Shown here piece after piece: positions 17,824 through 29,783 of a DNA stretch of 64,000 bases (position 1 is the first letter of the stretch; each line of letters begins with the position of its first letter). Source of the stretch: Clostridia bacterium. GTDB taxonomy: Bacteria > Bacillota > Clostridia > UBA1212 > DUPL01. The stretch spans positions 576,001 to 640,000 of the forward strand of contig JBMNIW010000012.1 of assembly GCA_050951325.1 (NCBI GenBank), read 5' to 3'. The position numbers were made by a program, and so were the translations under genes. The notes under the pieces were generated by a model that searched no databases, had not been told where the DNA came from, and saw only the letters and a program-made list of their open reading frames with translations.

Positions 17824-17905
17824 TCCATATTCAATTTTTTGTTGCGTCCTTGGCAACACTAGTATTATACTCAAAAAAAGACAAATTATTCATTAATTGA
17901 GAAAT

Positions 17906-18088
17906 TTATCTGTCTACCAGTGCCCTGCTCTTATAGCTTGCACACATGCTTTCATCAATATCTTCAGTTGCGCAGTTCATTTTAGGCGTAACCTTTATAG
18001 CTGACAAAGTACAGCTGTTTTCAAGCGTATCGTTAAAAGAGCAGCTTGCCACATCACAAGAAATAGACTGACATTTTTTATGGCTCAT
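17906..18088 (-). CDS. DUF1540-like small Cys-rich protein
   Basis: ISCDVASCSFN...CTLSAIKV...SMCASY; AAAGGTGG RBS. Confidence 0.75.
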   Translation of the reverse strand: MSHKKCQSISCDVASCSFNDTLENSCTLSAIKVTPKMNCATEDIDESMCASYKSRALVDR

Positions 18089-18188
18089 TTTAGTTCCACC
18101 TTTCAAGTCAACCTTTGTACGGAATTACCGTACAGTTGTATTTTGTCCTGAAAAACGTTATTCTTTCATGTAATTTTAGCCTGATATA

Positions 18189-18217
18189 TTGACAATGGTA
18201 ATCGGTTAGTATAAAAT
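18189..18217 (+). promoter_or_regulatory. Sigma-A promoter of the riboswitch-led operon
   Basis: TTGACA-17 bp-TAAAAT. Confidence 0.75.
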
Positions 18218-18263
18218 CTAAATGCTTTGATATTTTTTTAACAATATTAAAGTGAAAAAAATA

Positions 18264-18366
18264 CTGGTTCCGAGTGTTTTCTACCTAAAGCCAAAATGGC
18301 CATGGGGAAACACCGATAGGGTTGAAAGAGAAATTTTTCAGCCTTCCGGAGTTGAAAAGGAACAGG
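18264..18366 (+). ncRNA. Moco RNA motif riboswitch, P3-less tungsten-cofactor (Tuco/Wco) type
   Basis: TCCGAG; P2 GTGTTTTC/GGAAACAC with CCTAAAG..CATGG tetraloop-receptor-like motif; AGGG; P4 GGTTGAAAGA-GAAA-TTTTTCAGCC; CTTCCG...GAAAAGGA; only 4 nt where P3 would be; downstream genes are pterin-related. Confidence 0.88.
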
Positions 18367-18402
18367 AAAGAAATCACCCTTATGGGTGGTAATTTCTTTA
18401 TG

Positions 18403-18439
18403 TTCTCTTGTTCCGGACGGAATCAAGAGAATTTTTTTT
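18403..18439 (+). terminator. Riboswitch expression-platform terminator
   Basis: TTCTCTTGTTCC-ggac-GGAATCAAGAGAA followed by T8, about 30 nt before the first start codon. Confidence 0.85.
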
Positions 18440-18468
18440 GATAAAGAAATTAAAAGGAGAAGAATAAA

Positions 18469-19665
18469 ATGAAAAAGCATCTATTAATCTTGGCGATATT
18501 TGTATTAGTTTTAGCACTGGCTGCTGGGTGTGCAAATAATAACGGTCAGAACACCACACCAACACCTACTGATGCACCCCAGTCCTATGAGGATGACGAC
18601 TATATTCTTGAAATTGTAGGAATCGGGGATGAAACCATCAAAGTGACAAAAGGGCAAATCAGGGAACTTGCCGCAGGTGGCAAACTTGTTGAGTACGGCG
18701 AAGACCAGCCTGCATACGCATCCGACAAGACTGACGATGATGGCAACAAAATTCCACACACATTGAAAGGAGTATATTTCGACGATATACTTGAAGTTTA
18801 TGCAGATGACGCAAAAACTTCCGATTTTACAAGCATGTCTATTTATGCCGAAGACGGTTACGAGACAATTCTTTCAGCTGATGTCTTCAACGTAGAACAA
18901 GGCGGAGTTAAAATGATTGTTGCCTTTGAGTATGACGGCATTGAGCTTAATCCAAATGAGAAGAGCGGAGCTTTGAGAGTTGTTTTTCCTGACAAGCCGG
19001 CAAATACCTGGGCAAAACAGGTTTCCAAGATAGTTTTGGCAAGTGAGGAAGATGAGGAAACAGTTCCGGAAACTGAAAGCGTATACTTCTCAGAATCAAC
19101 CGGAGACAAATATGACGGTAGTTATGAGGTAGACGGCACTACATATTATGGAACAAGCTTCAAAAAAATATTTGACGACGGAATATTGAAGAGCGGTGAT
19201 AAGGCCCAGATGTTCGTATATTCGTGGGATGGAACCGAGTATACAAGCTTGAAGACAAAAGAGTATTACGAGGATGCGTTCTTGGTTTATGCATCAAAGG
19301 ATGCTGACAGTGACGAGTTTGCTCAAGAGAAGGACGCACCGGTATTCAATGGGGCAAACATTTTAAAAGGCATGAAGGTAAAACACACCATGTATGTGAC
19401 TGTTGAAAACACTTCTTTTGCAGTACTTGACAAAGTTTTTGAAAAGCTTGATTCCAAAGGCAAAGGCAGTATTCTTGTTAGTGAGCTGCTTGATGAAATA
19501 AATATGAAAGAAGCGTCAATCTATACCATAACCGGGGTTGACGGCACTGAAAAACAGGCAAAGAAAGAAGATTTAAAGGATATAAGGATTGAGTCAACAG
19601 ATGAAGGATACGTTGTTTCAGTTGATGGCAGTGAGTTTGTAATATTGAGCATACAGGCGAAATGA
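18469..19665 (+). CDS. Lipoprotein with repeated molybdopterin-binding (Oxidored_molyb/SUOX-fold) domains lacking the Mo-ligand Cys
   Basis: Lipobox LAAGC, PT linker; LKGVYFDDIL..YAEDGY..IVAFEYDG..GALRVVFP..TWAKQVSKI; degenerate repeats follow. Confidence 0.75.
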   Translation: MKKHLLILAIFVLVLALAAGCANNNGQNTTPTPTDAPQSYEDDDYILEIVGIGDETIKVTKGQIRELAAGGKLVEYGEDQPAYASDKTDDDGNKIPHTLKGVYFDDILEVYADDAKTSDFTSMSIYAEDGYETILSADVFNVEQGGVKMIVAFEYDGIELNPNEKSGALRVVFPDKPANTWAKQVSKIVLASEEDEETVPETESVYFSESTGDKYDGSYEVDGTTYYGTSFKKIFDDGILKSGDKAQMFVYSWDGTEYTSLKTKEYYEDAFLVYASKDADSDEFAQEKDAPVFNGANILKGMKVKHTMYVTVENTSFAVLDKVFEKLDSKGKGSILVSELLDEINMKEASIYTITGVDGTEKQAKKEDLKDIRIESTDEGYVVSVDGSEFVILSIQAK

Positions 19666-20228
19666 GGAAGGTTATTAAATCATATTCTGTTTTGGATCTG
19701 GTATTAATAGCGATGCTAGCAGCCCTTGCTACAGGCTTCAAGACTGTTGCAAACACACTGGTCAAGTTAATAACAGGTCCTTTGGGAATCCCAGGAGGGG
19801 CTTTGGCAGGCGGATTTTATATGATGTGGCTTGCCATTGGGCATTCGGTAGTTCGTAAATTTGGGGTATCTTTCATGATATCCCTTGTCCAGGCTCTCGT
19901 ACTATTTACAACCAGCGCACCAGGCAGCCACGGCATCTGGACTTTCATAACGTATTTGATTCCCGGACTTTGCGTTGACATTGTGTTTCTCTTTGCAAGA
20001 AAAAACAATGCCAATGTTCTGCATTTCATGATTGCCGTGATGATGGCAAATGTACTGGGCACACTAGGGAGCTTTTTGCTATGGTTCAGGTTATCCTGGT
20101 TGTGGCTTGCGTTTAGCCTGACTGCAGCGGCTTTATCCGGAGCAATTGGAGGGCTTGTGGCATATTCTGTTGATAAGGGAATTAGGAGAATTGGTTTAAT
20201 TTTCAAAGAGGATGGGGCAGATCAATGA
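19662..20228 (+). CDS. ECF transporter substrate-specific S component
   Basis: 188 aa, about 6 TM, N-terminal DLVLIAMLAAL (AxxxA), PG..VD motif; same operon as EcfA/A'/T. Confidence 0.82.
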   Translation: MRKVIKSYSVLDLVLIAMLAALATGFKTVANTLVKLITGPLGIPGGALAGGFYMMWLAIGHSVVRKFGVSFMISLVQALVLFTTSAPGSHGIWTFITYLIPGLCVDIVFLFARKNNANVLHFMIAVMMANVLGTLGSFLLWFRLSWLWLAFSLTAAALSGAIGGLVAYSVDKGIRRIGLIFKEDGADQ

Positions 20229-21670
20229 AAAGAGCACTATTGATACTGACAGTTGTCTTGTTGGTGATTTTTGCAGGATGCACGAACAAGGAAAGTGAAC
20301 CAGGCAAATACATAACCGTAAACGGGGATATAGAAGGCGTCTCTGTAGAAGTGAACTTGAGTGATATTTCAAAAGAAGAGATAGCAATAAAGGATACACT
20401 TTACAAAGGGGTGCGTTTGTCAAAGGTTCTTGAGAAGGTTTCACTACTGGCACCTGTTGATAAGAGCTATGTAATGATAACAGCCATAGACGGAGTGTCT
20501 GCACTAATTGATGCGGAGACTGCCAACTTGTGTCATGTTGTCGAAGTAGAAGGAGTTTTGAACATAAAGGCTCCGGAACATCCGAGGGTTGTTGGTATCA
20601 AGCATGTTCTTGAGATTACAATAGTTGCCCATGAGGATGTGGAAATTTCTGATGAGAATTCTCTAAAAATTGTGGATCAAGAGGGTGACAGACGTATAAG
20701 TTTTGGAAACTGCAAGCTCCTTATGTTTGAGAAATCAGGTGAAAGTAGACAGAACGGAAATCTCGCTGTGAAGTATGTAAAGAAAGCGCCATTAAAGGCG
20801 GAAGAATTCATCGGCGATGATTTCGTACTTTACTTCGACAACTATGACATGCTGAAAGTGGATAGGGATTATGCAGGTGTTTTTGTTTGGGAAAATGGCA
20901 GAATATATTATGAAACGGACGAGAGGTACGATAGTCCTGTTACAGGTATTGTGACAGGCGTCGACACCGTTATATTCGATGCCTTTGACATGATGAAGAT
21001 ATTATTGGATAAGAATGAAATGGTTATGTTTATCCTGCCTGACGGGTTGTCTTACGAGCAGGTGGAATATTACAAGGATAACCTTACAATATTATCAGGC
21101 AATTACAAAAAAGCAGCCAGCGTGAACCCAGCCATATCAAATGTGGCTTTGGCAGCAATAATTACCGGACAATCACCTTTTGCAACAGGCATAACAAAGA
21201 GGGAAGTAAAAGCTCCTAACGTAAAGGACATTTTTGAATACGTTGTCAGTAAAGGGAAAACGGCATCATATATTGAAGGGAATTCAGTATTGGTTGTAAC
21301 CTCGGAAAAGCCAAAACTGAATGTAGCCAACTCGGAAGGATATACTGATAAAGGCGTATTTGAAACAGCCATGTATGAACTGGGCAAAAATCCTGATTTT
21401 TTATTCATACATTTCCACGGCATTGATGATGTAAATCACGAGTACTCTCCTTTGTCAGAGGAAGCCAAGCAGAAGATATATGAAATAGAAGGATATATTA
21501 AAGAGCTGGTTAAAAACTTTTATGGGCATGTGATAATTGTGCCTGACCATGGAGCAGTGACTATAGAAGACACGGATGGGACAAAAAGAGGAAAACACAG
21601 CTTGTTCAAGTATGGAGACATGTATGTGCCCTTCTACTATTTTGAAAGGGGTAGTTTGATTGAAGAATAG
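20225..21670 (+). CDS. Lipoprotein: degenerate SUOX-fold domain plus alkaline phosphatase/NPP-superfamily domain
   Basis: Lipobox IFAGC; YKGVRLSKVL..ITAIDG; ILPDGL, PAISNVALAAIITG, HFHGIDDVNH, VPDHG, GKH. Confidence 0.8.
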   Translation: MKRALLILTVVLLVIFAGCTNKESEPGKYITVNGDIEGVSVEVNLSDISKEEIAIKDTLYKGVRLSKVLEKVSLLAPVDKSYVMITAIDGVSALIDAETANLCHVVEVEGVLNIKAPEHPRVVGIKHVLEITIVAHEDVEISDENSLKIVDQEGDRRISFGNCKLLMFEKSGESRQNGNLAVKYVKKAPLKAEEFIGDDFVLYFDNYDMLKVDRDYAGVFVWENGRIYYETDERYDSPVTGIVTGVDTVIFDAFDMMKILLDKNEMVMFILPDGLSYEQVEYYKDNLTILSGNYKKAASVNPAISNVALAAIITGQSPFATGITKREVKAPNVKDIFEYVVSKGKTASYIEGNSVLVVTSEKPKLNVANSEGYTDKGVFETAMYELGKNPDFLFIHFHGIDDVNHEYSPLSEEAKQKIYEIEGYIKELVKNFYGHVIIVPDHGAVTIEDTDGTKRGKHSLFKYGDMYVPFYYFERGSLIEE

Positions 21671-22208
21671 GAATGTGCTTATTGCACTGGTTATATTGGT
21701 TGTACTTTCCATTCTGTTTGGTGTTATGCTGTTTGTCTTTATGAATGAAAACAAGAAAAACGTGGAGCAGTATGAAAAAAGGGAAATTGCAATTACCATC
21801 AATGGAGAGAGGGAAGTATATACCTTTGAAGAATTGATGGAGATAAGCCAGCCGGTTGATTTTAAGGCAATATACAAGCCTAGCAACAAGGAACCCATAG
21901 AAAAGACCTATACCGGAATAGAATTGAGGGACCTGCTTGAGAAGTTGGGGGCAGACTTGGAGAACATGAAACAGATTACATTTACTGCAAAAGACGGTTT
22001 TCAGAAAGTGTACCGGGCAGAGGATGTAAGGAAGGAAACCAATGTATTTATAACGCATTTGGTGAATGGAAAGCCTTTCAACGAAGGCATTGATGTGATG
22101 GCATATGAAAAGGAACAGGAAGATGGCGGACCTTTTGTGGTAATAAAGGCGGAAGACAAAGTAAGCCAGAACAGAGTAAAAATGCTTGTAGAGATTGTGG
22201 TGGAATGA
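21660..22208 (+). CDS. Membrane-anchored molybdopterin-binding (SUOX-fold) domain protein, no Cys
   Basis: N-terminal TM; YTFEEL..YTGIELRDLL..TAKDGF..VNGKPF..GGPFVVI..VKMLVEI. Confidence 0.78.
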   Translation: MKNRNVLIALVILVVLSILFGVMLFVFMNENKKNVEQYEKREIAITINGEREVYTFEELMEISQPVDFKAIYKPSNKEPIEKTYTGIELRDLLEKLGADLENMKQITFTAKDGFQKVYRAEDVRKETNVFITHLVNGKPFNEGIDVMAYEKEQEDGGPFVVIKAEDKVSQNRVKMLVEIVVE

Positions 22209-22870
22209 AACTTACAGTAGAAAATCTAACAGTAATGTTTAAAAACAGAATTATACTTGATAATGTATCATTACAAGTTGAAGCAGGAGAAATTGTTGCA
22301 GTAGTCGGACCAAATGGCAGTGGAAAATCCACACTTTGTACTGCAATTGCAGGTGTGTCTCAAAATTATGGACTGAGTACTGTTGGCAGAATAAGGATAG
22401 GTGACAAAGAGTTGTCCCAACTCAGTATTCATGAAAGATGCGCCTTGCTTGGTGTCATATTCCAGAATTCTGATAACTTTCTTTTTTCTCAATATGTTGA
22501 GGACGAGCTTCGGTTTGCTCCTGAAAATCTATGTGTTCCCAGGGCGGAAATTGAAACAAGAATAAAAGAAGCTTTGGATTTTACCGGTATTAGCTATTTA
22601 AGACATAGAAAAATTCAGGAGCTTTCGGGAGGGGAGAAGAAGCTGGTTTCAATTGCGTCTGTTTTAACCATGATGAGCAAATTCCTAATAGCGGATGAAA
22701 TAACTTCCGGAGTAGACGAGGACAGGAAGGTTCAGATACGGGAGATTCTAAGAAAACTAGCCAAAGACAATATTGGAATACTAATGATATCCCACAACAG
22801 AAACGATATTGAAATTGCTGACAGAATATATGTATTAAAGGATGGCAAATTGCATGATAGAACTGATTGA
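22205..22870 (+). CDS. ECF transporter ATPase (EcfA)
   Basis: GPNGSGKST, IFQN, VEDELRFAPENL, LSGGEKK, ADE, SH. Confidence 0.88.
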   Translation: MKLTVENLTVMFKNRIILDNVSLQVEAGEIVAVVGPNGSGKSTLCTAIAGVSQNYGLSTVGRIRIGDKELSQLSIHERCALLGVIFQNSDNFLFSQYVEDELRFAPENLCVPRAEIETRIKEALDFTGISYLRHRKIQELSGGEKKLVSIASVLTMMSKFLIADEITSGVDEDRKVQIREILRKLAKDNIGILMISHNRNDIEIADRIYVLKDGKLHDRTD

Positions 22871-23507
22871 CGTATCCTTTGCGTATAACAAGAACAACAT
22901 GGTTCTGAGAAATATTACATATACATTCAAAGAAGGTGTACTGTATGTTTTGGGCGGAAAAAACGGCTCAGGCAAAACCACAATGGGAAAACTAATGTGC
23001 GGCCTTGTAAAGACAAAACAAGGTATTGTCAAGGTAAGCGGAACCAATATATATAAAAAGACTGTTGGCGAGATATCAGAACATGTAGGGTATTTGTACC
23101 AGAATCCTGATTTGCAATTATTTGCACCGACCGTTTATGAAGAACTTGTTTTTCCTTATGAACTGAATGGAACACTGACTTATGAAATAAAAGAGAGGGC
23201 GGAAAAGCTGCTCCAGGTCTTCAAGCTTGAAGACAAAAAGGACACCTTTCCTCTGCTCATGTCCTTGGGAGAAAGACAGAGGCTTGCTCTTGCCACAATA
23301 ATGATGAGGGACACCAAATTCATTATATTTGATGAACCGACATCCTCCATTGATGCGGAATGCAAAGCAATGATACATGAATTTATATTAAGCTTTGTTG
23401 AAAATGGAGGAGGAGCTTTTATAATATCACATGATGAGGATTTCAATTTGAACGGAGTAAACGGCATGAATCTGAGGATGGAAGGTGGAATGCTGTATGA
23501 AAAGTAG
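22854..23507 (+). CDS. ECF transporter ATPase (EcfA')
   Basis: GKNGSGKTT, YQNPDLQLFAPTVYEEL, SLGERQR, FDEPT, SHD. Confidence 0.88.
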   Translation: MIELIDVSFAYNKNNMVLRNITYTFKEGVLYVLGGKNGSGKTTMGKLMCGLVKTKQGIVKVSGTNIYKKTVGEISEHVGYLYQNPDLQLFAPTVYEELVFPYELNGTLTYEIKERAEKLLQVFKLEDKKDTFPLLMSLGERQRLALATIMMRDTKFIIFDEPTSSIDAECKAMIHEFILSFVENGGGAFIISHDEDFNLNGVNGMNLRMEGGMLYEK

Positions 23508-24234
23508 ACTGGATCCAAGAATCACCATGTTGTTTATTGTACTGACATCCACACTGTCCGTCCTTGCCTCAAATGTATATTGGCTGCTGCTGGTCTTTTT
23601 ATTGACCCTGTTGTTAAACATTGTATTCAGATTAAATCCATTGAAGACTCTGTACAGAATGAGAAGGCTTGTGTCAATGATAATCTTCATAGCCTTTTTC
23701 CAAAGCCTCACAACTTCGGGAGGGAGACCAATTATTACTTTGCTCGGTGCAAATATTGTAACTTCCAAAGGACTTGTGGACAGCTTGTCTTTTGTACTCA
23801 GGATGGGCAACATAATGCTGGCCGTCATGCTCGGTACAAAACATGACAGTCGTGATATGATAGACGGACTTGCAAAACTCAAGATTCCTTATGAGCTGGC
23901 CTTTATGACAGGAATAGCACTCAAGTTTATTCCACTGTTTGGTCAGGAGTTTGCCGATAGAATAAAAGCCGTAAGTTTGAGAGGAATAAATATTAAGAAA
24001 CTCAAGCTGTCAAAAAAGATAAAAATCTATTCACACATTTTGGTGCCTGCAATTTCCGGCAGCATTATCAAGAGCAGGGATATTGCCTCATCCATGGAGA
24101 CAAGGGGATTCAGGGCGTATCCTGATAGAACCAATTTAAGAGTATTGAAACTAAAATTAGCAGACTATATCGCAATGATAATTGCATCATCAATATTTTT
24201 ACTAATCATATACTTTATGTTTGCAAGGAGGTAG
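23497..24234 (+). CDS. ECF transporter transmembrane component EcfT
   Basis: LDPR start, IPYE..IALKFIP, SLRG and METRGF coupling motifs. Confidence 0.9.
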   Translation: MKSRLDPRITMLFIVLTSTLSVLASNVYWLLLVFLLTLLLNIVFRLNPLKTLYRMRRLVSMIIFIAFFQSLTTSGGRPIITLLGANIVTSKGLVDSLSFVLRMGNIMLAVMLGTKHDSRDMIDGLAKLKIPYELAFMTGIALKFIPLFGQEFADRIKAVSLRGINIKKLKLSKKIKIYSHILVPAISGSIIKSRDIASSMETRGFRAYPDRTNLRVLKLKLADYIAMIIASSIFLLIIYFMFARR

Positions 24235-24236
24235 TT

Positions 24237-24977
24237 ATGAAAGTATTAACGGTAACGGGGCTTAGCGGAAGCGGAAAGACCACCGTAATAGAGAATTTGA
24301 TAAAAGAACTAAAAAGAAGAGGTTATTCCATAGGAAGTGTAAAGGAGATTCATTATGAGGCGTTTGCCATTGATACTCCTGGAAAGAACACCTACAGACA
24401 CAGACAAGCAGGAGCAGAAATTGTAACAGCAAGAGCTCACAATGAAACAGACATATTGTATCCCGGACACCTGCCGATTTACGAAGTGCTCTCCCACTAT
24501 AATCAGGACTATGTTTTGCTTGAAGGAGTAAGGGACTGTGTGGCTCCGGAGATTGCTGTTTGCAAGGAAGATGCTGAGCCTGAAATAACTCCTCTTACGT
24601 TTGCAGTAAGTGGAAGGTTTGCAAACACCGGTGTTACGGAGTACAAGGGTCTTCCTGTAATATCAGCAGTTGATGACATAGGAAGACTGGCAGACCTTGT
24701 CGAGGAAAAGGTTCCGAGTTTAATGCATGATATAGAGTATGAATGCTGTGGTGAATGCGGTACGGATTGTAGAGGATTTCTTGCAAGGCTTCTGAAGGGA
24801 GAGGTTGTCAGTTCCGATTGCGAACTGAGTCAAAGAGAAGTCAAGTTGATTATCGACGGTCAGGATATTGTAATGGTGCCTTTTGTTCAAAGGATACTGA
24901 AAAACGCAGTGGTGGGAGTTGTATCGGAACTTAATGGGTACAAGGAAGGAAAGAAGATAGTAATAGAGATAGAATGA
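24237..24977 (+). CDS. mobB: MobB-like P-loop protein with C-terminal FeS domain
   Basis: VTGLSGSGKTTVIENLIKEL..VKEIH..IDTPGKNTYRHRQAGA; CGECGTDC..C. Confidence 0.82.
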   Translation: MKVLTVTGLSGSGKTTVIENLIKELKRRGYSIGSVKEIHYEAFAIDTPGKNTYRHRQAGAEIVTARAHNETDILYPGHLPIYEVLSHYNQDYVLLEGVRDCVAPEIAVCKEDAEPEITPLTFAVSGRFANTGVTEYKGLPVISAVDDIGRLADLVEEKVPSLMHDIEYECCGECGTDCRGFLARLLKGEVVSSDCELSQREVKLIIDGQDIVMVPFVQRILKNAVVGVVSELNGYKEGKKIVIEIE

Positions 24978-25627
24978 TGGGCGAAATTATTAAGCGGTTC
25001 GAGAGCAAGAAAAACAGTGTTTTTCTAGTAAGTGTGGAAGGAATCATGCAAGTTGTAAAGGTGCATGAATCAGAGGAAAAAGCCTACTTTGAATCAGAGG
25101 TTTTAAAAAGGCTTTACTTGTATGCTAACGTACCAAAGGTTATTAAGGTAGAATCAAACAGGATCTACATGGAATACATAGAGGGAAAACTTGCTGTTGA
25201 CTACTTTCTCGAATGCGATACTGAAGAAGTAAAAGAACTGGCAAGACAGATGCTATCCTTTTGCCGGGTTTACTCAGACCAATTTGATAACTTCCGTTTG
25301 TCGGATACAAACTTCCGGAATTTTATCGTGGTTGAAATGGACGAAGAAATTGAATTGTACGGTGTTGATTTTGAGGAAAGGGAAGAAGGCACACTGATAA
25401 AAAGTGCAGCTGAACTGTGTGCTTTCTCGTTTTTGTATGATGTTGATGCTTATAAGAAGAAAACCTTTTACAATACAATTGCATCAAATTGCTCCGAGCA
25501 GGAAGTTGACTTTTTAAACGACTATATTTTTAATAGCTTGAATAAGCTTATTAAAAGACGCAGATTGAATTTAAATGTTAAAAGTGTCTTTGAAGAATTG
25601 GTAATTGGCAACGGGCATATGGTATAA
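24974..25627 (+). CDS. Small protein-kinase-fold phosphotransferase (Bud32/RIO/Kdo-kinase-like)
   Basis: VVK, helix-C Glu (FESE), VPKV, YMEYIEG, DTNFRN catalytic loop, VDFE. Confidence 0.72.
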   Translation: MMGEIIKRFESKKNSVFLVSVEGIMQVVKVHESEEKAYFESEVLKRLYLYANVPKVIKVESNRIYMEYIEGKLAVDYFLECDTEEVKELARQMLSFCRVYSDQFDNFRLSDTNFRNFIVVEMDEEIELYGVDFEEREEGTLIKSAAELCAFSFLYDVDAYKKKTFYNTIASNCSEQEVDFLNDYIFNSLNKLIKRRRLNLNVKSVFEELVIGNGHMV

Positions 25628-25673: not shown

Positions 25674-26408
25674 ATGAAGGTAACACTCAAGGACAAGGTT
25701 GTAGTTGTAACTGGTGCGGGAGGCGGCATCGGCAGCGCCATCTGTGAGGGGGTGGCTAAAGAGGGTGCGAGGATTGCACTTTGCGGCGGCAACAACCTGG
25801 AAAAGCTGAATGCCTCAGCGGACATTATTAGGGAATACGGTGTTGACCCATATGTTCTTCCAGGTGATCTTGCCAACATGGATTTTCTGACAACTTGCAT
25901 TGACAAAATAGCACAGCATTTTGGCAGAATTGACATACTTATTAACAATGCCGGAATTGCACACAATGCTCCATTTGAAGAAACAAAAATGGAGGATTTT
26001 GACAGGATAATGAATATAAACGTAAAGGTGCCTTTTGTTTTATGCCAGAAGGTGCTTCCATATTTGCGTGAATCGAATCATGCTACAATTATCAACATTG
26101 CATCTGTTGTTGCCCACAAAGGGTATGTAAATCAGGCAATATACACTGCATCCAAGCATGCCCTGCACGGGTTTACAAAATCGCTTGCAAACGAGGTCTA
26201 TGCTGAAAATATTAGAGTTCATACTGTTTGTCCGGGTGGAGTATTTACCGATATGGTTAAGGTAACACGTCCGGATCTGACTGGTGAGGATATGATTATG
26301 CCTGAAGAGATTGCGGATATTGTCCTATTCCTCCTTACAAGAAGAGGCAATGCTGTCATTGACGATATCTGCGTGCGGAGAGCTGCAAAAAATCCATTTG
26401 ATGTATGA
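25674..26408 (+). CDS. SDR family NAD(P)-dependent oxidoreductase
   Basis: TGAGGGIG, NNAG, YTASK. Confidence 0.92.
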   Translation: MKVTLKDKVVVVTGAGGGIGSAICEGVAKEGARIALCGGNNLEKLNASADIIREYGVDPYVLPGDLANMDFLTTCIDKIAQHFGRIDILINNAGIAHNAPFEETKMEDFDRIMNINVKVPFVLCQKVLPYLRESNHATIINIASVVAHKGYVNQAIYTASKHALHGFTKSLANEVYAENIRVHTVCPGGVFTDMVKVTRPDLTGEDMIMPEEIADIVLFLLTRRGNAVIDDICVRRAAKNPFDV

Positions 26409-26410
26409 AA

Positions 26411-26448
26411 AAAAGAGGAAAAAACCATAATGGAGTTTTTTCCTCTTT
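26411..26448. terminator. Bidirectional terminator between convergent genes
   Basis: AAAGAGGAAAAAA...TTTTTTCCTCTTT inverted repeat. Confidence 0.7.
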
Positions 26449-26452
26449 GCTT

Positions 26453-26704
26453 TTATCCCGCAATTATGACAGGAAATATTTTTATCCTGTCGCCATCTTT
26501 AATCGGATCGTTCCAGTTGTGTTTGACACTGTTTATGGTTGCAAATCCAACTTCTTCATCAGGAATGTTCAATAACGAAACAAGTTCATCCAATAGGATT
26601 TCATCTCTTCCGTCAATTGAGAGTTCAAAACTGTTCTCGTCGTCCTTGAACCTTTCCTTGTTGTACTTTTTCAATGTGTGAAACAGCTCAACAGTTATAA
26701 CCAT
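26453..26704 (-). CDS. MoaD/ThiS family ubiquitin-like sulfur carrier
   Basis: Beta-grasp pattern ending IKDGDRIKIFPVIIAG; downstream of the AOR-family gene. Confidence 0.8.
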   Translation of the reverse strand: MVITVELFHTLKKYNKERFKDDENSFELSIDGRDEILLDELVSLLNIPDEEVGFATINSVKHNWNDPIKDGDRIKIFPVIIAG

Positions 26705-26705
26705 C

Positions 26706-28484
26706 TTAGACAAACTCCTTTATTGACTCATCTTCTTCAGCCAAAATTTCCTCGCAACGCCTTGCATATTCTTCTGCAATCTCGTTTGCCATATACTGAT
26801 CAAGTTTGCCTGTTGTTGTTGGTGTTTCAAAAAATCTCTTGGGAAGCTTTACATCCTGTATTGCAAAGCCCAAGGATTTCTTAATCTCTAGCTTTGTTCT
26901 CAGGATACGCTTTGCAATATCTGTCAGTGTTTCGTCAGTATAGTCAAGCCCAACGCATTTAAGGACCATCCTGATATTTTCCCTGCTGTATACTTTACGT
27001 GCAAACAGGCATATGATTAAAGAATTCAGCAGGCAGCGCTCGATTTCCTCGCTAATAAGGTAGTCTACGAGTTTTTCCTTGTCAAGCTCCTTGTCCCTGT
27101 TGGACTGGTCATATGAATAGCCTGCATTACAGAGGTGAGAATGTCTTGCGCCTACCAATGCGCCTACAAGAGAGCCGTAGCCCGTGTGGTAACCAGGCAT
27201 TTCGTTACCAGCAATCTGCATGCCAAAATCATAACCGCCATACTTCTTGGCTACGTGTTTTACTCCCTTGCCCATATCGGTATAGAGCTGATTGACACCT
27301 TGTGCAATGTAGTCGACAGCTTTAGCAAGGTTTACATAATCGCCCATCTTCAAAGGCAGAATGGTTTGCTCTTCTGTAATGATGCCCCTTTCAAGAGCTT
27401 CACAAGCCCATCCCAGAACAACACCGCAGGACATGGCGTCAAGCCCGTTTCTTTCAACAGCATCGATAACGTATAAAACTCCATCCGTATTATCAACACC
27501 AAGGAATGAGCCAAGTGCATAAATTAGTTCGTAGTCGTATCCGACCGAAATCGCTTCGTACTCATAGCCGTGGTCAAATTCACGTCTGAACTGTCCTATG
27601 TGTATGCATCCAACAGGACATCCTGTGCATGCCATTTTTCTAATCAGGTTGTTCTTCGCAAAGGCCTCTCCTGAAATATTTTCAGCATGCTCAAAAGTTC
27701 CAGAGGTAAGGTTTCGGGTCGGAAGACCTCCCATGGCGCTCAATGGCTCTACGTTTATGGGAGTGCCGGCATCATGATATTTTGCCATTACTTCTGTTTC
27801 GGTTACCTGTTTGTACAGTTTGGAGTAGGTCTTGAAATAGTCCTTGAAATTGGGTATTGGCATGGGAAGATCGCCTGTAACCTGCATTGCTTTCATAAGC
27901 TTGCTGCCAAAAACGGCACCCAGGCCCAGTCTTCCAAAATGTCTGTATGTGTCAACGCAAACACTTGCATAGGAGCACAGATTTTCACCTGCAGGACCTA
28001 TGCGGATGATGGAACGCTTTCCGCTTCCATGCTCCCTGTTTCTGATATATGAGCCTACCTTGTCGGAGTCCATTCCCCAAAAAGCGCGTGCGTCCTTTAT
28101 TTCCACTCCTGTTTGTGTAACTGTAACATAACAAGGTTTTTGAGATTTACCTGTAATTACTATGGCGTCATAGCCTGCATGCAGCATTGTGAAGGCGAGT
28201 CTGCCACCTGCATAGGACTCACCCAGTTCTCCTGTTAGAGGAGAAACAAACATGGCTACAGTCTTGGTTATGACTGGAAATACAGATGAAGCTGCGCCAA
28301 TTGCAAAAATTATAGGTTGATCCTCATGAAGGGGAGGCAAATCAGGATTCATGTTTTCCTGTAGGAGTTTTGAGGCAACTCCCACACCTCCCAAATAGGC
28401 TCTAAGATCCTTTCTCTTGTCAACCCTTATGCGGCCTGTTGAGAGATTTATATTCAAAACTCTTATGTAATCTTTATAAAACAT
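26706..28484 (-). CDS. Tungsten-containing aldehyde:ferredoxin oxidoreductase family (WOR/AOR) large subunit
   Basis: YLGGVG, SPLTG..ESYAGG, GYDAIVITGK, IGPAGEN, GRLGLGAVFGSK, LPTRN, CTGCPVGC; GGAGG RBS before ATG 28484. Confidence 0.93.
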   Translation of the reverse strand: MFYKDYIRVLNINLSTGRIRVDKRKDLRAYLGGVGVASKLLQENMNPDLPPLHEDQPIIFAIGAASSVFPVITKTVAMFVSPLTGELGESYAGGRLAFTMLHAGYDAIVITGKSQKPCYVTVTQTGVEIKDARAFWGMDSDKVGSYIRNREHGSGKRSIIRIGPAGENLCSYASVCVDTYRHFGRLGLGAVFGSKLMKAMQVTGDLPMPIPNFKDYFKTYSKLYKQVTETEVMAKYHDAGTPINVEPLSAMGGLPTRNLTSGTFEHAENISGEAFAKNNLIRKMACTGCPVGCIHIGQFRREFDHGYEYEAISVGYDYELIYALGSFLGVDNTDGVLYVIDAVERNGLDAMSCGVVLGWACEALERGIITEEQTILPLKMGDYVNLAKAVDYIAQGVNQLYTDMGKGVKHVAKKYGGYDFGMQIAGNEMPGYHTGYGSLVGALVGARHSHLCNAGYSYDQSNRDKELDKEKLVDYLISEEIERCLLNSLIICLFARKVYSRENIRMVLKCVGLDYTDETLTDIAKRILRTKLEIKKSLGFAIQDVKLPKRFFETPTTTGKLDQYMANEIAEEYARRCEEILAEEDESIKEFV

Positions 28485-28893
28485 CGTCGACTTCCTCCAT
28501 TGTAAGACATTGATGTGGACAGAATCTTGTGCAGGATCCACAGTGTTTGCAGATTATTGGCAAATTCTCTTCCTCGTCAAAAAACACCGCGCCAACTATG
28601 CAAGCATCAACACACTTTTTGCATCCGGTACACATATCCTTGTTAAGCAGGACACCGCCTCCTTTACGTTCAACCAACGCACCTGTAGGACAAGCTTCAA
28701 GACATGCTCTGTCATCCTTGCATGCGTGGCATACAGTTGCATAGAATCCGTGTTTCAAGCCTCCGTTTGTCTTTATTTTTATTGCACTTTTTGAAATGGA
28801 GAAGTTGTGTTTGTTGACAGCTGCACATACGGTCATGCATGAAAAGCAGCCAATGCACTTCCTCATTCCGTCTGTTCTAAGCGCTCTTGCCAC
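28474..28893 (-). CDS. 4Fe-4S dicluster ferredoxin-like small subunit of the WOR
   Basis: CIGCFSCMTVC, CHAC..CLEACP, CTGCKKCVDAC, CKHCGSCTRFCP; overlaps the large-subunit start. Confidence 0.92.
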   Translation of the reverse strand: MARALRTDGMRKCIGCFSCMTVCAAVNKHNFSISKSAIKIKTNGGLKHGFYATVCHACKDDRACLEACPTGALVERKGGGVLLNKDMCTGCKKCVDACIVGAVFFDEEENLPIICKHCGSCTRFCPHQCLTMEEVDDVL

Positions 28894-28983: not shown

Positions 28984-29054
28984 TTTCTACATGTCCAATT
29001 TTATTTGTATTATTGAGGGAAAATTAGTATACTAATAATATAGGGGTGAACAGA

Positions 29055-29783
29055 ATGAGTACACACAAATCAAGCAAAAGATATGAAAGGCAGATGAATT
29101 TACAGAGTCTTCCCGACAACTTTCAGGACTTATTGCGTAATAGCAAGGTGTTGATTCTGGGAGCAGGAGGCTTGGGCTGTGCAGCCTCCATTTATGTCGC
29201 TGCAGCTGGTGTTGGAAAAATAACGGTGGTGGACAGGGACACTATAAACGAGCCCGACTTGAACAGACAGATACTCTATACACCGGAGGACATAGGAAAA
29301 AAGAAAGCCAAAACATGTGTGGAGAGGCTACATAAATTCAACCCGGATATAGAATGTGTGGGATTGGCAAAGGAGATAAATGACAAACTACTAAAGGACC
29401 TTGTTCCGAAGCATGATATTGTCATGGATTTATGCGACAACTATTCCACGAGAATAAAAATAGCTGAAGCATGTCAAAAATATGGTAGGCAATGTGTGGT
29501 TGCAGCTGTAAATGGACTTGAAGGATTTGTGATGGTTACAGACAAAGGTTCTGCATGTTTTGGTTGCCTTTATCCTGACGAAGTAAAGCTTTCAGTCAGC
29601 CCGCCGAGGGTTTTGGGAGCAGCAGCAGGAAATGTGGGAGTTCTAGCTGCCATGCGATGCATACTGACTTTATGTAATGTTGGAAAGGTCGGTGTCATGT
29701 ATTGTCTTGATTTTATAAACATGATTATTGACGAGATAGAGATAACGAAAAGCACCAATTGTCATGTTTGCTGCAAGGCTTGA
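29055..29783 (+). CDS. MoeB/ThiF family adenylyltransferase
   Basis: RYERQ, GAGGLG, DRD..DLNRQ, CDN, CFGC and CHVC zinc motifs. Confidence 0.9.
   Translation: MSTHKSSKRYERQMNLQSLPDNFQDLLRNSKVLILGAGGLGCAASIYVAAAGVGKITVVDRDTINEPDLNRQILYTPEDIGKKKAKTCVERLHKFNPDIECVGLAKEINDKLLKDLVPKHDIVMDLCDNYSTRIKIAEACQKYGRQCVVAAVNGLEGFVMVTDKGSACFGCLYPDEVKLSVSPPRVLGAAAGNVGVLAAMRCILTLCNVGKVGVMYCLDFINMIIDEIEITKSTNCHVCCKA

What the first reader, a model, noticed from the sequence alone, without database searches (positions are those of the whole stretch)
18264..25627. Candidate pyranopterin (Moco/Wco) cofactor scavenging system: capture, dephosphorylate, ECF import, re-phosphorylate
Seen: one riboswitch-led operon of nine overlapping or abutting genes. 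It encodes a SUOX-fold lipoprotein, an ECF S component, a SUOX-fold/alkaline-phosphatase lipoprotein, a membrane-anchored SUOX-fold protein, EcfA, EcfA', EcfT, MobB-FeS and a kinase-fold protein. It lies beside a tungsten WOR with MoaD/MoeB-like genes. No moaA/moaC/moaE/moeA and no Mod/Tup/Wtp oxyanion transporter are in the window. Known: ECF importers carry vitamins and cofactors and are usually controlled by a riboswitch for that cofactor; tungstate and molybdate use ABC systems with soluble binding proteins; phosphorylated cofactors are commonly dephosphorylated outside and re-phosphorylated inside. Inference: this imports intact molybdopterin/W-pterin or a precursor, treating it as a vitamin. 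I know of no characterised bacterial transporter for this cofactor, so it would imply pterin-cofactor cross-feeding among anaerobes.
Basis: partly seen in the sequence, partly recalled or inferred. Interest (0 to 1): 0.93.

Follow-up and report, generated by a model that had tools for sequence, protein, structure and literature searches.

The report
Candidate tungsten/molybdenum cofactor scavenging importer
A riboswitch-controlled nine-gene transporter operon in an anaerobe that has a tungsten-type enzyme but no genes to make its pterin cofactor looks like the first bacterial uptake system for the finished molybdenum/tungsten cofactor, which would make that cofactor a shared vitamin.

Summary
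A P3-less Moco/Tuco riboswitch (18256-18378) with a terminator leads nine abutting + strand genes (18469-25627). They encode two predicted lipoproteins and one membrane-anchored protein with Cys-less SUOX-fold domains, and one of the lipoproteins also carries an intact NPP/alkaline-phosphatase domain. The rest are a YkoE-family ECF S component, EcfA, EcfA', EcfT, MobB fused to a Cys-rich domain, and a small kinase-fold protein.

The window's genome (96% complete) has no MoaA C-domain, MoaC, MoaE, MoeA, DMSO-reductase-family or XDH-family gene, and no Tup/Mod/Wtp-type binding protein. It has one Moco riboswitch (this one) and one pterin enzyme, the AOR next to the operon.

The cassette is conserved in 80 fetched loci, 60 of them with the riboswitch upstream. 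In a class sample all 16 carriers have an AOR. Of 50 carrier genomes, 22 lack MoaC, MoeA and the MoaA C-domain, yet all 22 hold a pterin enzyme; the other 28 have MoaC.

The SUOX domain resembles PruR pterin-binding proteins and is predicted to dock on the S component.

Best reading (about 0.62): salvage import of a pyranopterin (W/Mo) cofactor. No step has been shown biochemically. My literature searches found no description of such a system.

The parts
18189..18217 (+). promoter-like site TTGACA-17-TAAAAT
   Evidence: matches 11 of 12 positions. The number of such sites in the region is not above the shuffles, so this is only a candidate.
18256..18378 (+). Moco/Tuco riboswitch aptamer, P3-less type
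   Evidence: RF01055, 66.7 bits (gathering score 36), with the P3 positions deleted; it is the only match in the genome; the same element lies upstream in 60 of 80 related loci.
18402..18439 (+). intrinsic terminator of the riboswitch (expression platform)
   Evidence: the hairpin folds at -14.8 kcal/mol and is followed by U8. It forms when P1 is forced. In the free MFE fold the 5' strand of P1 pairs with its 3' half instead. From this an OFF switch is inferred.
18469..19665 (+). predicted lipoprotein (398 aa) with an N-terminal Cys-less SUOX-fold domain and a second domain
   Evidence: PF00174, 26.7 bits; hhalign 99.2% to the gene 4 family; the only nearly invariant Cys is the one after the leader.
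19662..20228 (+). ECF S component (188 aa), a distinct branch of PF09819/YkoE-like proteins
   Evidence: 58.2 bits; the only PDB relative is YkoE (5edl) at E 0.029; 139 relatives, named only 'ECF transporter S component'.
20225..21670 (+). predicted lipoprotein (481 aa): partial SUOX-like N-domain plus an NPP/alkaline-phosphatase-superfamily domain
   Evidence: PF01663, 42.7 bits. D273, D401, H405, D441, H442 and H458 are invariant, and a T/S sits in the PVTNAG motif; nearest solved relatives are bacterial NPP (2gsn) and ENPP5/7/4. N-domain matches at 95.7%.
21660..22208 (+). membrane-anchored Cys-less SUOX-fold protein (182 aa), PruR-like
   Evidence: model pLDDT 95.2; Foldseek top hits are SorA (2ca3), PruR (7kom, 7kos), chicken sulfite oxidase and YedY; best sequence hit is 7kom; predicted to bind the S component.
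22205..22870 (+). EcfA-type ABC ATPase
   Evidence: ABC_tran, 101.8 bits. The best NCBIfam hit is TIGR04520 ECF_ATPase_1 at 177.7 bits, below its cut-off of 315.
22842..23507 (+). EcfA'-type ABC ATPase
   Evidence: ABC_tran, 97 bits. The best NCBIfam hit is TIGR04520 at 145 bits, below its cut-off.
23485..24234 (+). EcfT (CbiQ family)
   Evidence: PF02361, 92.9 bits.
24237..24977 (+). MobB P-loop NTPase fused to a Cys-rich domain
   Evidence: PF03205, 86.4 bits; TIGR00176, 83.6 bits (cut-off 76.2); MobB/FeS models below their cut-offs. Walker A and C170, C171, C174, C178, C195 are invariant in 31 sequences. Foldseek hits MobB first, then HypB, MeaB and UreG.
24974..25627 (+). small kinase-fold protein (217 aa)
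   Evidence: K29, D111, N116 and D132 are invariant, and E40 nearly so; weak PDB hits to Bud32/RIO2 and amicoumacin kinase. APH in 18 of 35 relatives and RIO1 in 18 of 35.
25674..26408 (+). SDR oxidoreductase, possibly co-transcribed; not part of the conserved cassette
   Evidence: generic SDR; no terminator-like site between 25627 and 25674; an SDR is seen beside the cassette in only a few loci, mostly on the other strand.
26412..26448 (.). hairpin between the convergent units (terminator-like)
   Evidence: a 15-pair stem listed on the - strand, lying between the end of the SDR gene and the end of the 86-aa ORF.
26453..26713 (-). 86-aa ORF after the AOR; MoaD/WorX-like by position only
   Evidence: translation ends ...IIAG; no family hit. 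PMC13328260 (passages) describes worX and thiF beside Class I WORs.
26706..28541 (-). AOR/WOR-family pterin enzyme, the only one found in the genome
   Evidence: AFOR_N 205.6 bits and AFOR_C 214.4 bits; one match in the genome; no PF00384 and no PF02738.
28474..28893 (-). 4Fe-4S ferredoxin upstream of the AOR
   Evidence: Fer4 families.
29046..29783 (+). ThiF/MoeB-like adenylyltransferase
   Evidence: PF00899, 193 bits; best NCBIfam hits are MoeB models, below their cut-offs.

Best explanation
The operon encodes a dedicated ECF importer that salvages an exogenous pyranopterin cofactor: tungsten or molybdenum cofactor, or a trimmed form of it. This lets the cell load its AOR without making the cofactor.

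**Proposed course. Only the parts list is shown; every step is inferred.**
1. When the cofactor is scarce, the P3-less riboswitch lets transcription read through.
2. Outside the membrane, Cys-less SUOX-fold domains on two lipoproteins and on a membrane anchor capture the pterin, as PruR binds pterins.
3. The NPP-type phosphoesterase trims it. It removes either the nucleotide of MGD/MCD forms or the terminal phosphate.
4. The anchored SUOX protein sits on the S component and hands the ligand over.
5. EcfAA'T drives uptake.
6. Inside, the kinase-fold protein restores a phosphate if one was removed.
7. The MobB/Cys-rich NTPase passes the cofactor to the apo-enzyme.

Because the genome has neither MoeA nor a Tup/Mod/Wtp binding protein, the metal most likely enters already bound to the pterin.
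For: **Own genome (96.09% complete, 12 contigs)**
- No match to the MoaA C-domain, MoaC, MoaE or MoeA_N.
- The single PF00994 hit lies in a 422-aa ORF; I read this as CinA-like by recall and did not test it.
- There is one AFOR_N gene, adjacent to the operon, and one RF01055 match, this one.
- No PF00384 and no PF02738.
- The only PF13531/PF12849 hits are PotD, a LysR-type regulator and the PstS of a pstSCAB-phoU operon.

**Conservation**
- 472 species genomes encode a relative of the S component, and 80 loci were kept.
- Around the S component:

| Neighbour | Loci, of 80 |
|---|---|
| SUOX-type gene upstream | 62 |
| NPP gene | 72 |
| anchored SUOX gene downstream | 75 |
| MobB/Cys-rich gene | 66 |
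| kinase-like gene | 53 |

- Many of the remaining contigs are cut short.
- The riboswitch lies upstream on the same strand in 60 of 80 loci and in 7 of 7 loci by Rfam.

**Link to the enzyme**
- In 301 class genomes, all 16 strong carriers have AFOR_N, against 23 of 284 others.

**Auxotrophy**
- 22 of 50 carrier genomes lack both MoaC and MoeA_N, and none of the 22 has the MoaA C-domain above cut-off.
- 20 of these 22 have an AOR. The other two have PF00384, and one of those also has PF02738.
- On the S-component tree this label needs 8 changes, 6 of them forced by supported branches. The window sits in a 13-row clade with 12 auxotrophs.
- In the order of G001, 7 of 10 carriers lack MoaC.

**Parts**
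- The SUOX fold is confirmed, and no Cys is conserved in 40 sequences.
- The nearest sequence relative in the PDB is PruR (7kom). PruR is a Cys-less SUOX-fold periplasmic pterin binder (PMC11194511, passages).
- The NPP metal ligands are invariant.
- The kinase motifs are invariant.
- The riboswitch reads as an OFF switch, as expected for supply genes.
- Predicted complex of the S component with the anchored SUOX protein: score 0.68, best of 3 controls 0.00. That mark was reached by 58 of 80 solved complexes and 2 of 110 mismatched pairs. The runs agree in at least 81% of contacts and the partner pLDDT is at least 81. My own alignments were used, so these counts hold only roughly.
- Contigs from RNA libraries of digester metagenomes span 18246-21916 and 18247-20997. 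DNA carry-over is not excluded.
Against: - 28 of 50 carriers have MoaC and 27 have MoeA. All 15 other carriers in the class sample have MoaC. The operon therefore does not mark auxotrophy.
- Completeness was not reported for the 50 genomes reached through loci, nor for the order sample. MoaC and MoeA often lie in one cluster, so their joint absence is not two independent observations.
- Three complete genomes (G109, G192, G268) have an AFOR_N ORF but no MoaC, no S component at E <= 1e-10 and no Moco riboswitch. An AOR-like gene without MoaC can therefore exist without this system.
- Free Moco/Tuco is known to be labile (recalled), and no extracellular pool has been shown.
- AOR needs a bis-pterin tungsten centre (recalled). 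How imported units would be assembled without MoeA is unknown.
- The S component's family also holds YkoE, a thiamine/HMP component, so the ligand cannot be read from sequence.
- No binding, transport, phosphoesterase or kinase activity has been measured.
Confidence: 0.62

Rival explanations
1. The system imports the oxyanion (tungstate or molybdate), not the pterin. The SUOX-like domains would bind the oxyanion outside the cell and the ECF module would carry it in, as Mod/Tup/Wtp systems do under the same riboswitch class.
For: - Moco RNAs are known upstream of molybdate/tungstate transporters (PMC2408646, passages).
- The window's genome has no Tup/Mod/Wtp-type binding protein, although nearly all holders of Class I-IV WORs are reported to have TupABC (PMC13328260, passages).
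- 28 of 50 carriers make their own pterin and could use a metal importer.
Against: - In the window's genome and 22 others there is no MoaA C-domain, MoaC or MoeA to use an oxyanion.
- An extracytoplasmic NPP phosphoesterase with intact metal ligands and a conserved cytoplasmic kinase have no role in oxyanion uptake.
- The nearest relatives of the binding domain bind pterins or Moco.
- By recall, no ECF system is known to carry an oxyanion.
Confidence: 0.1
2. The ECF module exports self-made cofactor to load extracytoplasmic SUOX-fold oxidoreductases, as EetB/FmnA export flavin in Listeria. The operon would then be an enzyme-maturation system, not a salvage system.
For: - ECF complexes that export a cofactor exist (PMC9973259, abstract).
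- In the long form of the operon, the stretch between riboswitch and S component encodes SLH-anchored SUOX-fold proteins, a SUOX + FMN_bind protein and a NapH-like Fer4_5 + FMN_bind membrane protein. This is an extracytosolic electron-transfer set (8 proteins of 2 loci examined).
Against: - The window's genome and 22 carriers cannot make the cofactor.
- No Cys that could ligate Mo/W is conserved in the SUOX domains.
- The leader reads as an OFF switch.
- The kinase and the phosphoesterase are left unexplained.
- The S component is YkoE-like. Whether it resembles EetB was not compared.
Confidence: 0.07
3. The system imports a different pterin (neopterin, monapterin or a folate-type pterin). The SUOX domains would work as PruR does, and the link to AOR would be indirect.
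For: PruR-type SUOX domains bind non-Moco pterins such as neopterin in crystals (PMC11194511, passages). The anchored domain is about the size of PruR and lacks the Cys.
Against: - The riboswitch belongs to the Moco/Tuco class in 60 of 80 loci.
- A MobB homologue is part of the cassette in 66 of 80 loci.
- 16 of 16 carriers in the class sample hold an AOR.
- By established knowledge of the pathway, non-pyrano pterins are not precursors of Moco.
Confidence: 0.07
4. The system imports an early, more stable intermediate (cyclic pyranopterin monophosphate or a degraded pterin). This would be rebuilt inside by unrecognised enzymes, perhaps with the MoaD-like and MoeB-like genes beside the AOR.
For: - A ThiF/MoeB-like gene and a small ORF lie beside the AOR.
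- By recall, cPMP is the most stable pathway intermediate.
- The MobB/Cys-rich protein is the best conserved protein of the cassette, at 59% mean column identity, and its role is open.
Against: No MoaE and no MoeA are found in the genome, so the known route from cPMP to the metal cofactor is missing. worX/thiF pairs also accompany Class I WORs in organisms with a full pathway (PMC13328260, passages).
Confidence: 0.1

Closest known systems
Riboswitch-controlled ECF vitamin importers with salvage enzymes (thiamine YkoEDC/ThiT, riboflavin RibU and the like; recalled, apart from the YkoE structure 5edl)
   Same: It has an S component of the YkoE Pfam family, EcfT and two EcfA ATPases in one operon behind a riboswitch for the finished cofactor. 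A cytoplasmic kinase-fold protein is also encoded, as in vitamin salvage.
   Different: - The riboswitch is of the Moco/Tuco class.
- The S component matches YkoE only at E 0.029.
- Three extracytoplasmic SUOX-fold proteins and an NPP phosphoesterase belong to the cassette.
- One of the SUOX-fold proteins is predicted to sit on the S component. ECF importers are known for working without binding proteins (recalled).
PruR, periplasmic pterin-binding protein of Proteobacteria (PDB 7kom, 7kos, 7kou; PMC11194511)
   Same: Both are small secreted SUOX-fold domains without the Mo-ligating Cys. PruR is the best sequence hit in the PDB and ranks 2, 14 and 23 in the fold search.
   Different: - PruR is soluble, pairs with the DcpA diguanylate cyclase and signals. 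Here the domain is lipid- or helix-anchored in Bacillota and pairs with a transporter.
- PruR's PW motif was not looked for.
- Identity is 15-18%.
ModABC / TupABC / WtpABC oxyanion importers under Moco RNAs
   Same: Both share control by the same riboswitch class and the same purpose, supplying Mo/W enzymes (PMC2408646, passages).
   Different: Those are binding-protein-dependent type I ABC importers for oxyanions and need the full pterin pathway. This is an ECF system that also occurs in genomes lacking that pathway.
EetB/FmnA ECF flavin exporter of Listeria (PMC9973259, abstract)
   Same: Both are ECF complexes that serve extracytosolic cofactor-binding proteins. The long form of this operon carries FMN_bind proteins.
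   Different: The direction is proposed to be inward here, because many carriers cannot make the cofactor. The S components were not compared.
Dietary Moco uptake by Caenorhabditis elegans (PMC9793310 and others, search listing only)
   Same: In both, an organism uses Moco made by others.
   Different: That case is an animal with no transporter identified in what I saw. This is a bacterial system with a candidate transporter.
SUOX-family molybdoenzymes (sulfite oxidase, SorA, YedY/MsrP)
   Same: The fold is shared: TM-score to query 0.58-0.64.
   Different: No conserved Cys ligand is present, the domain is truncated to about 130 residues, and there is no haem or dimerisation domain. I do not file it as an enzyme of this family.

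Membership tests
ECF transporter (dedicated, group I type) | small integral-membrane S component | tested here: met
   PF09819, 58.2 bits. Its relatives are named 'ECF transporter S component'.
ECF transporter (dedicated, group I type) | EcfT plus two ABC ATPases encoded with the S component | tested here: met
   CbiQ at 92.9 bits and two ABC_tran proteins whose best NCBIfam hits are ECF ATPases, though below those models' cut-offs. The same gene order is seen in the related loci.
ECF transporter (dedicated, group I type) | substrate bound by the S component and carried inward | not testable with these tools
   This needs binding and uptake assays.
Moco/Tuco riboswitch (RF01055) | score above the curated gathering threshold | tested here: met
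   66.7 bits against 36. 7 of 7 related loci also pass.
Moco/Tuco riboswitch (RF01055) | P3-less subtype linked to tungsten cofactor use | tested here: met
   The P3 positions are deleted in the cmscan alignment. Only 2-4 nt lie between P2 and the AGGG in 8 of 8 aligned copies. The subtype is described in PMC2408646 (passages).
Moco/Tuco riboswitch (RF01055) | ligand binding and direction of control | tested here: inconclusive
   Folding shows an antiterminator/terminator alternative that fits an OFF switch.
SUOX-family molybdoenzyme | SUOX Moco-binding fold | tested here: met
   Foldseek E 3e-07 to 1e-05 against SorA, sulfite oxidase and YedY.
SUOX-family molybdoenzyme | conserved Cys that ligates Mo | tested here: not met
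   There is no invariant or nearly invariant Cys in the domain among 40 sequences. In the lipoprotein family the only conserved Cys is the one after the leader.
PruR-type pterin-binding protein | small secreted SUOX-fold domain lacking the Cys | tested here: met
   The definition comes from PMC11194511 (passages).
PruR-type pterin-binding protein | operon with a DcpA-type diguanylate cyclase/phosphodiesterase | tested here: not met
   No such gene is found in the operon or in the 80 loci as mapped with the window's proteins. I did not search the loci for GGDEF domains.
PruR-type pterin-binding protein | pterin sandwiched by conserved Tyr/Trp, and the PW motif | not tested
   No residue-level superposition was made.
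NPP / alkaline-phosphatase superfamily | two-metal site ligands and a Thr/Ser nucleophile | tested here: met
   D273, D401, H405, D441, H442 and H458 are invariant, and a T/S sits in PVTNAG. Nearest solved relatives are NPPs. Assigning these residues to the metal sites is from recall.
MobB | P-loop NTPase matching the MobB models above cut-off | tested here: met
   PF03205, 86.4 bits (cut-off 26.6), and TIGR00176, 83.6 bits (cut-off 76.2). Walker A is invariant. Top Foldseek hits are MobB.
MobB | occurs with MobA for MGD synthesis | not tested
   I did not search for MobA (PF12804).
Protein-kinase-like / APH small-molecule kinases | catalytic Lys, Glu, DxxxxN loop and metal-binding Asp | tested here: met
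   K29, D111, N116 and D132 are invariant, and E40 nearly so. The window protein is below the Pfam cut-off (21.6 against 22). APH matches 18 of 35 relatives.

The most novel reading that the evidence does not exclude
Finished tungsten/molybdenum cofactor is a traded vitamin among anaerobes. A dedicated ECF importer takes up the metal-loaded pyranopterin, fed by tethered, non-catalytic SUOX-fold capture proteins and an ecto-phosphoesterase that trims dinucleotide forms. Whole lineages have therefore dropped MoaA/C/E, MoeA and even the tungstate transporter, and obtain both pterin and metal from their neighbours' enzymes. The tethered capture protein docking on the S component would also be the first binding-protein-assisted ECF importer.
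Probability: 0.4. Interest if true: 0.95.

Novelty: new variant of a known kind. Interest (0 to 1): 0.87.

Why it matters
- Moco is usually treated as a cofactor that cells must make themselves. The start of one abstract in my search listing says that in most organisms it cannot be taken up (PMC9026282). The only uptake I found in print is dietary Moco in nematodes.
- A bacterial importer would name the first transporter for this cofactor.
- It would explain how genomes with AOR, formate-dehydrogenase-like or XDH-like genes can lack the whole pathway.
- It would add the tungsten/molybdenum cofactor to the vitamins that structure anaerobic communities such as digesters and guts.
- It would change how Mo/W enzyme capacity is inferred from genomes.
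- It would offer a tool for delivering the labile cofactor.
- It makes an open question directly testable with a defined nine-gene cassette.

Tried and rejected
**Literature**
- Searches covered PMC open-access papers and bioRxiv only. None found a description of a bacterial Moco/Tuco importer or of this operon.
- Hits read and set aside as irrelevant: PMC11477304, PMC3197636, PMC13119186 (cobalt ECF).
- Subscription journals and supplements were not searchable. Table 1 and the supplementary figures of PMC2408646 may list this operon type under 'sulphite oxidase' genes of Syntrophomonas wolfei. I saw only the text passage and did not check that locus.

**Own-genome binding proteins**
- I rejected the idea that the PBP_like_2 hit is TupA. 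It is the PstS of a pstSCAB-phoU operon.
- The SBP_bac_11 hit is PotD.

**Unexplained exceptions**
- I looked for another riboswitch-led system in the three AOR-like-positive, MoaC-negative, operon-negative genomes. None of the 3 has RF01055, so they stay unexplained.

**RNA libraries**
- The bin 17868-18301 upstream of the operon had little or no contig cover in the four RNA libraries.
- Contig starts at 18246/18247 in X1 and X2 cannot show a transcript start.

**Limits of the genome counts**
- The SDR gene after the operon is not conserved beside the cassette, so I left it out of the system.
- Completeness was not reported for G001-G050 or for the order sample, although min_completeness 90 was asked for.
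- Only 50 of the 80 loci were used for genome-wide counts.
- MobA, MoaE in other genomes, TupA in other genomes and GGDEF domains were not searched.

Full report
**What is there.**
- Rfam finds a Moco/Tuco riboswitch at 18256-18378 on the + strand: 66.7 bits against a gathering score of 36. The P3 hairpin is deleted.
- A strong promoter-like site lies at 18189-18217.
- A hairpin at 18402-18432 followed by eight U lies between the aptamer and the first start codon.
- In the free fold of the leader, the 5' strand of P1 pairs with the 3' half of that hairpin. When P1 is forced, the terminator forms. I read this as an OFF switch, which is an inference.
- Nine + strand ORFs follow from 18469 to 25627, overlapping or 2 nt apart.

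**The nine proteins.**

| Gene | Product | Key evidence |
|---|---|---|
| 1 | 398-aa predicted lipoprotein | PF00174 domain |
| 2 | 188-aa S component | PF09819 |
| 3 | 481-aa predicted lipoprotein | C-terminal NPP domain (PF01663) |
| 4 | 182-aa membrane-anchored protein | sub-threshold PF00174 match |
| 5, 6 | two ECF-type ATPases | ABC_tran |
| 7 | EcfT | CbiQ |
| 8 | MobB with a Cys-rich tail | PF03205 |
| 9 | 217-aa protein | sub-threshold RIO match |

**Checking the weak calls.**
- Profile-profile comparison ties the gene 4 family to the gene 1 family (99.2%) and to the N-terminus of the gene 3 family (95.7%, partial).
- A model of gene 4 (pLDDT 95.2) hits sulfite dehydrogenase, PruR, sulfite oxidase and YedY. 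PruR (7kom) is the best sequence hit in the PDB.
- Forty aligned domains share no conserved Cys. The defining Mo ligand of SUOX enzymes is therefore absent, and these are not enzymes of that family.
- PruR is a periplasmic, Cys-less SUOX-fold protein that binds pterins (PMC11194511, passages). It is the closest precedent.
- The NPP domain keeps invariant Asp/His ligands and a Thr/Ser in a PVTNAG motif across 36 sequences. Its nearest solved relatives are nucleotide pyrophosphatases/phosphodiesterases.
- The kinase-like family keeps Lys, Glu, DxxxxN and Asp, and 18 of 35 members match Pfam APH.
- MobB/Cys-rich is the best conserved protein of the set, with an invariant Walker A and five invariant Cys. 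Its model resembles MobB and then the G3E chaperone NTPases HypB, MeaB and UreG.
- The S component has only YkoE as a solved relative, at E 0.029.

**The genome.**
- The window lies in a 3.08-Mb genome in 12 contigs, 96.09% complete.
- It gave no match to the MoaA C-domain, MoaC, MoaE or MoeA_N.
- It has one PF00994 hit, in a 422-aa ORF that I take for CinA by recall.
- It has one AFOR_N gene, the AOR 1 kb from the operon, and one Moco riboswitch, this one.
- It has no DMSO-reductase-family gene and no XDH-family gene.
- The only candidates for an oxyanion-binding protein are PotD, a LysR regulator and the PstS of a pstSCAB-phoU operon.
- A recent survey says that virtually all holders of Class I-IV WORs have TupABC, and that a small worX gene and thiF commonly flank Class I WORs (PMC13328260, passages). 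The second point matches the 86-aa ORF and the ThiF-like gene here.
- None of 29 same-order relatives has the S component. None of the 11 same-order genomes in the class sample has AFOR_N or MoaC. The AOR and the operon thus look like a unit foreign to this lineage, which is an inference.

**Relatives.**
- 472 species genomes encode a relative of the S component, and I kept 80 loci.
- The cassette is conserved around the S component:

| Neighbour | Loci, of 80 |
|---|---|
| SUOX-type gene upstream | 62 |
| NPP gene | 72 |
| anchored SUOX gene | 75 |
| MobB/Cys-rich gene | 66 |
| kinase-like gene | 53 |

- Many contigs end inside the cassette.
- A covariance model built from eight copies finds the riboswitch upstream on the same strand in 60 of 80 loci.
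- Of the 20 loci without it, about 11 have under 500 nt before the first gene and about 6 are of the long form with too little upstream sequence. L016, L065 and L083 have room but no hit.
- In the long form (Sedimentibacter, Tissierellales, C. ultunense group) the riboswitch lies 7-9.8 kb upstream. The intervening genes encode SLH-anchored SUOX-fold proteins, a SUOX + FMN_bind protein and a NapH-like Fer4_5 + FMN_bind membrane protein (two loci examined). There the NPP protein lacks the SUOX-like N-domain.

**Phyletic pattern.**

*Class sample of 301 genomes (at least 90% complete)*
- 16 have a strong S-component match, and all 16 have AFOR_N, against 23 of 284 others.
- All 15 carriers other than the window's genome also have MoaC.

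- MoaC is found in 28, MoeA_N in 27 and AFOR_N in 47.
- 22 lack both MoaC and MoeA_N, and none of the 22 has the MoaA C-domain above cut-off.
- 20 of the 22 have an AOR. The remaining two have PF00384 proteins, and one of them, an isolate, also has three XDH-family hits.
- 13 of the 22 have an AOR as their only pterin-enzyme family.

*Tree and order sample*
- On a tree of the S components the auxotroph label needs 8 changes, 6 forced by supported branches. The window falls in a 13-row clade with 12 auxotrophs. This is a gene tree, and kin are not independent.
- In a sample of the order of G001, 10 of 121 genomes carry the S component and 7 of those 10 lack MoaC.

*Against the reading*
- Completeness was not printed for these genomes.
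- MoaC and MoeA are often neighbours, so their joint absence is not two independent observations.
- Three complete genomes have an AOR-like ORF without MoaC, without the S component and without the riboswitch.

**Mechanism.**
- A cell with an AOR, a cofactor-sensing OFF switch, no pathway and no oxyanion importer needs the cofactor from outside.
- The parts fit a salvage route: pterin-binding folds outside the cell, a phosphoesterase outside, an ECF importer, and a kinase and a MobB-type NTPase inside.
- The predicted complex of the S component with the anchored SUOX protein scored 0.68, against 0.00 for the best of three controls. That mark was reached by 58 of 80 solved complexes and 2 of 110 mismatched pairs. 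The runs agree in at least 81% of contacts and the partner pLDDT is at least 81. My own alignments were used, so these counts hold only roughly.
- In the model, the helix anchor packs on residues 118-165 of the S component. The conserved DG loop of the SUOX domain (residues 111-116) touches the loop at residues 31-44 of the S component. This supports, but does not show, a hand-off.
- I cannot tell whether the esterase removes GMP/CMP from dinucleotide cofactors or the terminal phosphate. The kinase favours the second, and the NPP relatives the first.
- The lack of MoeA and Tup suggests that the metal enters bound to the pterin.

**Expression.**
- The stretch is held by RNA libraries of biogas and digester metagenomes, with 0.94 and 0.90 of the sampled words in the two best.
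- Contigs from two such libraries span the leader and the first genes.
- DNA carry-over is not excluded, and contigs cannot show a transcript.

**Rivals.**
- *Oxyanion uptake* fails in the auxotrophs and leaves the esterase and kinase idle.
- *Export for maturation of extracytosolic enzymes* has a precedent in flavin export (PMC9973259, abstract) and fits the electron-transfer genes of the long form. It fails where no cofactor is made, lacks a Mo-ligating Cys and sits badly with an OFF switch.
- *Import of another pterin* fits PruR but not the riboswitch, MobB or the AOR link.
- *Import of cPMP* lacks MoaE and MoeA for the known onward steps.

**Novelty.**
- My searches found no description of a bacterial cofactor importer.
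- Regulski et al. noted P3-less Moco RNAs before putative sulphite oxidase genes in S. wolfei and took them for Moco-using enzymes (PMC2408646, passage). Relatives of the S component occur in Syntrophomonas MAGs, but I did not check that locus.
- I rate the system a new variant of a known kind (riboswitch-led ECF vitamin salvage), with a new substrate class and tethered capture proteins.

Noticed in passing
L027:1686-9487 and L087:674-9469: In the long form of the operon, the stretch between the riboswitch and the S component encodes SLH-anchored SUOX-fold proteins (one of 1323 aa with Reg_prop repeats), a SUOX + FMN_bind protein and a NapH-like Fer4_5 + FMN_bind membrane protein. This is an extracytosolic electron-transfer set that might keep a captured pterin reduced.
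   Followed up: partly
G048 (genome of L086, an isolate): This genome carries the operon and riboswitch, two PF00384 proteins (one with an in-frame TGA) and three XDH-family hits. It has no MoaA C-domain, MoaC, MoeA_N or AFOR_N match. It would be a culturable test case if the assembly is complete.
   Followed up: partly
G109, G192, G268 (class sample): These are complete genomes with an AFOR_N-containing ORF but no MoaC, no S-component match and no Moco riboswitch. They are unexplained. Two of them hold only the divergent 715-721-aa AOR-like form.
   Followed up: partly
window 25674-26408: An SDR oxidoreductase gene follows the operon after 46 nt, with no terminator-like site between them. The next hairpin, at 26412-26448, lies between the convergent units. 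Pteridine reductases are SDRs (recalled), but this SDR is not conserved beside the cassette.
   Followed up: partly
window 17906-18106 (- strand): A small Cys-rich DUF1540 protein (66 aa) is encoded divergently just upstream of the riboswitch promoter.
   Followed up: no
L089:4796-5674 (own genome, contig C11): The PstS of the pstSCAB-phoU operon matches the PBP_like_2 profile in swapped order. Its N-terminal part matches profile positions 131-266 and its C-terminal part matches 5-127. This looks like a circular permutation or a truncated tandem.
   Followed up: no
window 15466-17781: A 771-aa fusion of an ABC ATPase with an FtsX-type permease lies just upstream of the locus.
   Followed up: no
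window 18246-18247: Contigs from two RNA libraries both begin here, about 10 nt before the aptamer and about 30 nt after the promoter-like site. Contigs cannot show a transcript start.
   Followed up: no
L019, L030, L035 record titles: Three MAGs whose titles say Bacteroidaceae carry S components that sit inside the Christensenellales-like clade of Bacillota. This may be mislabelled bins or transfer.
   Followed up: no
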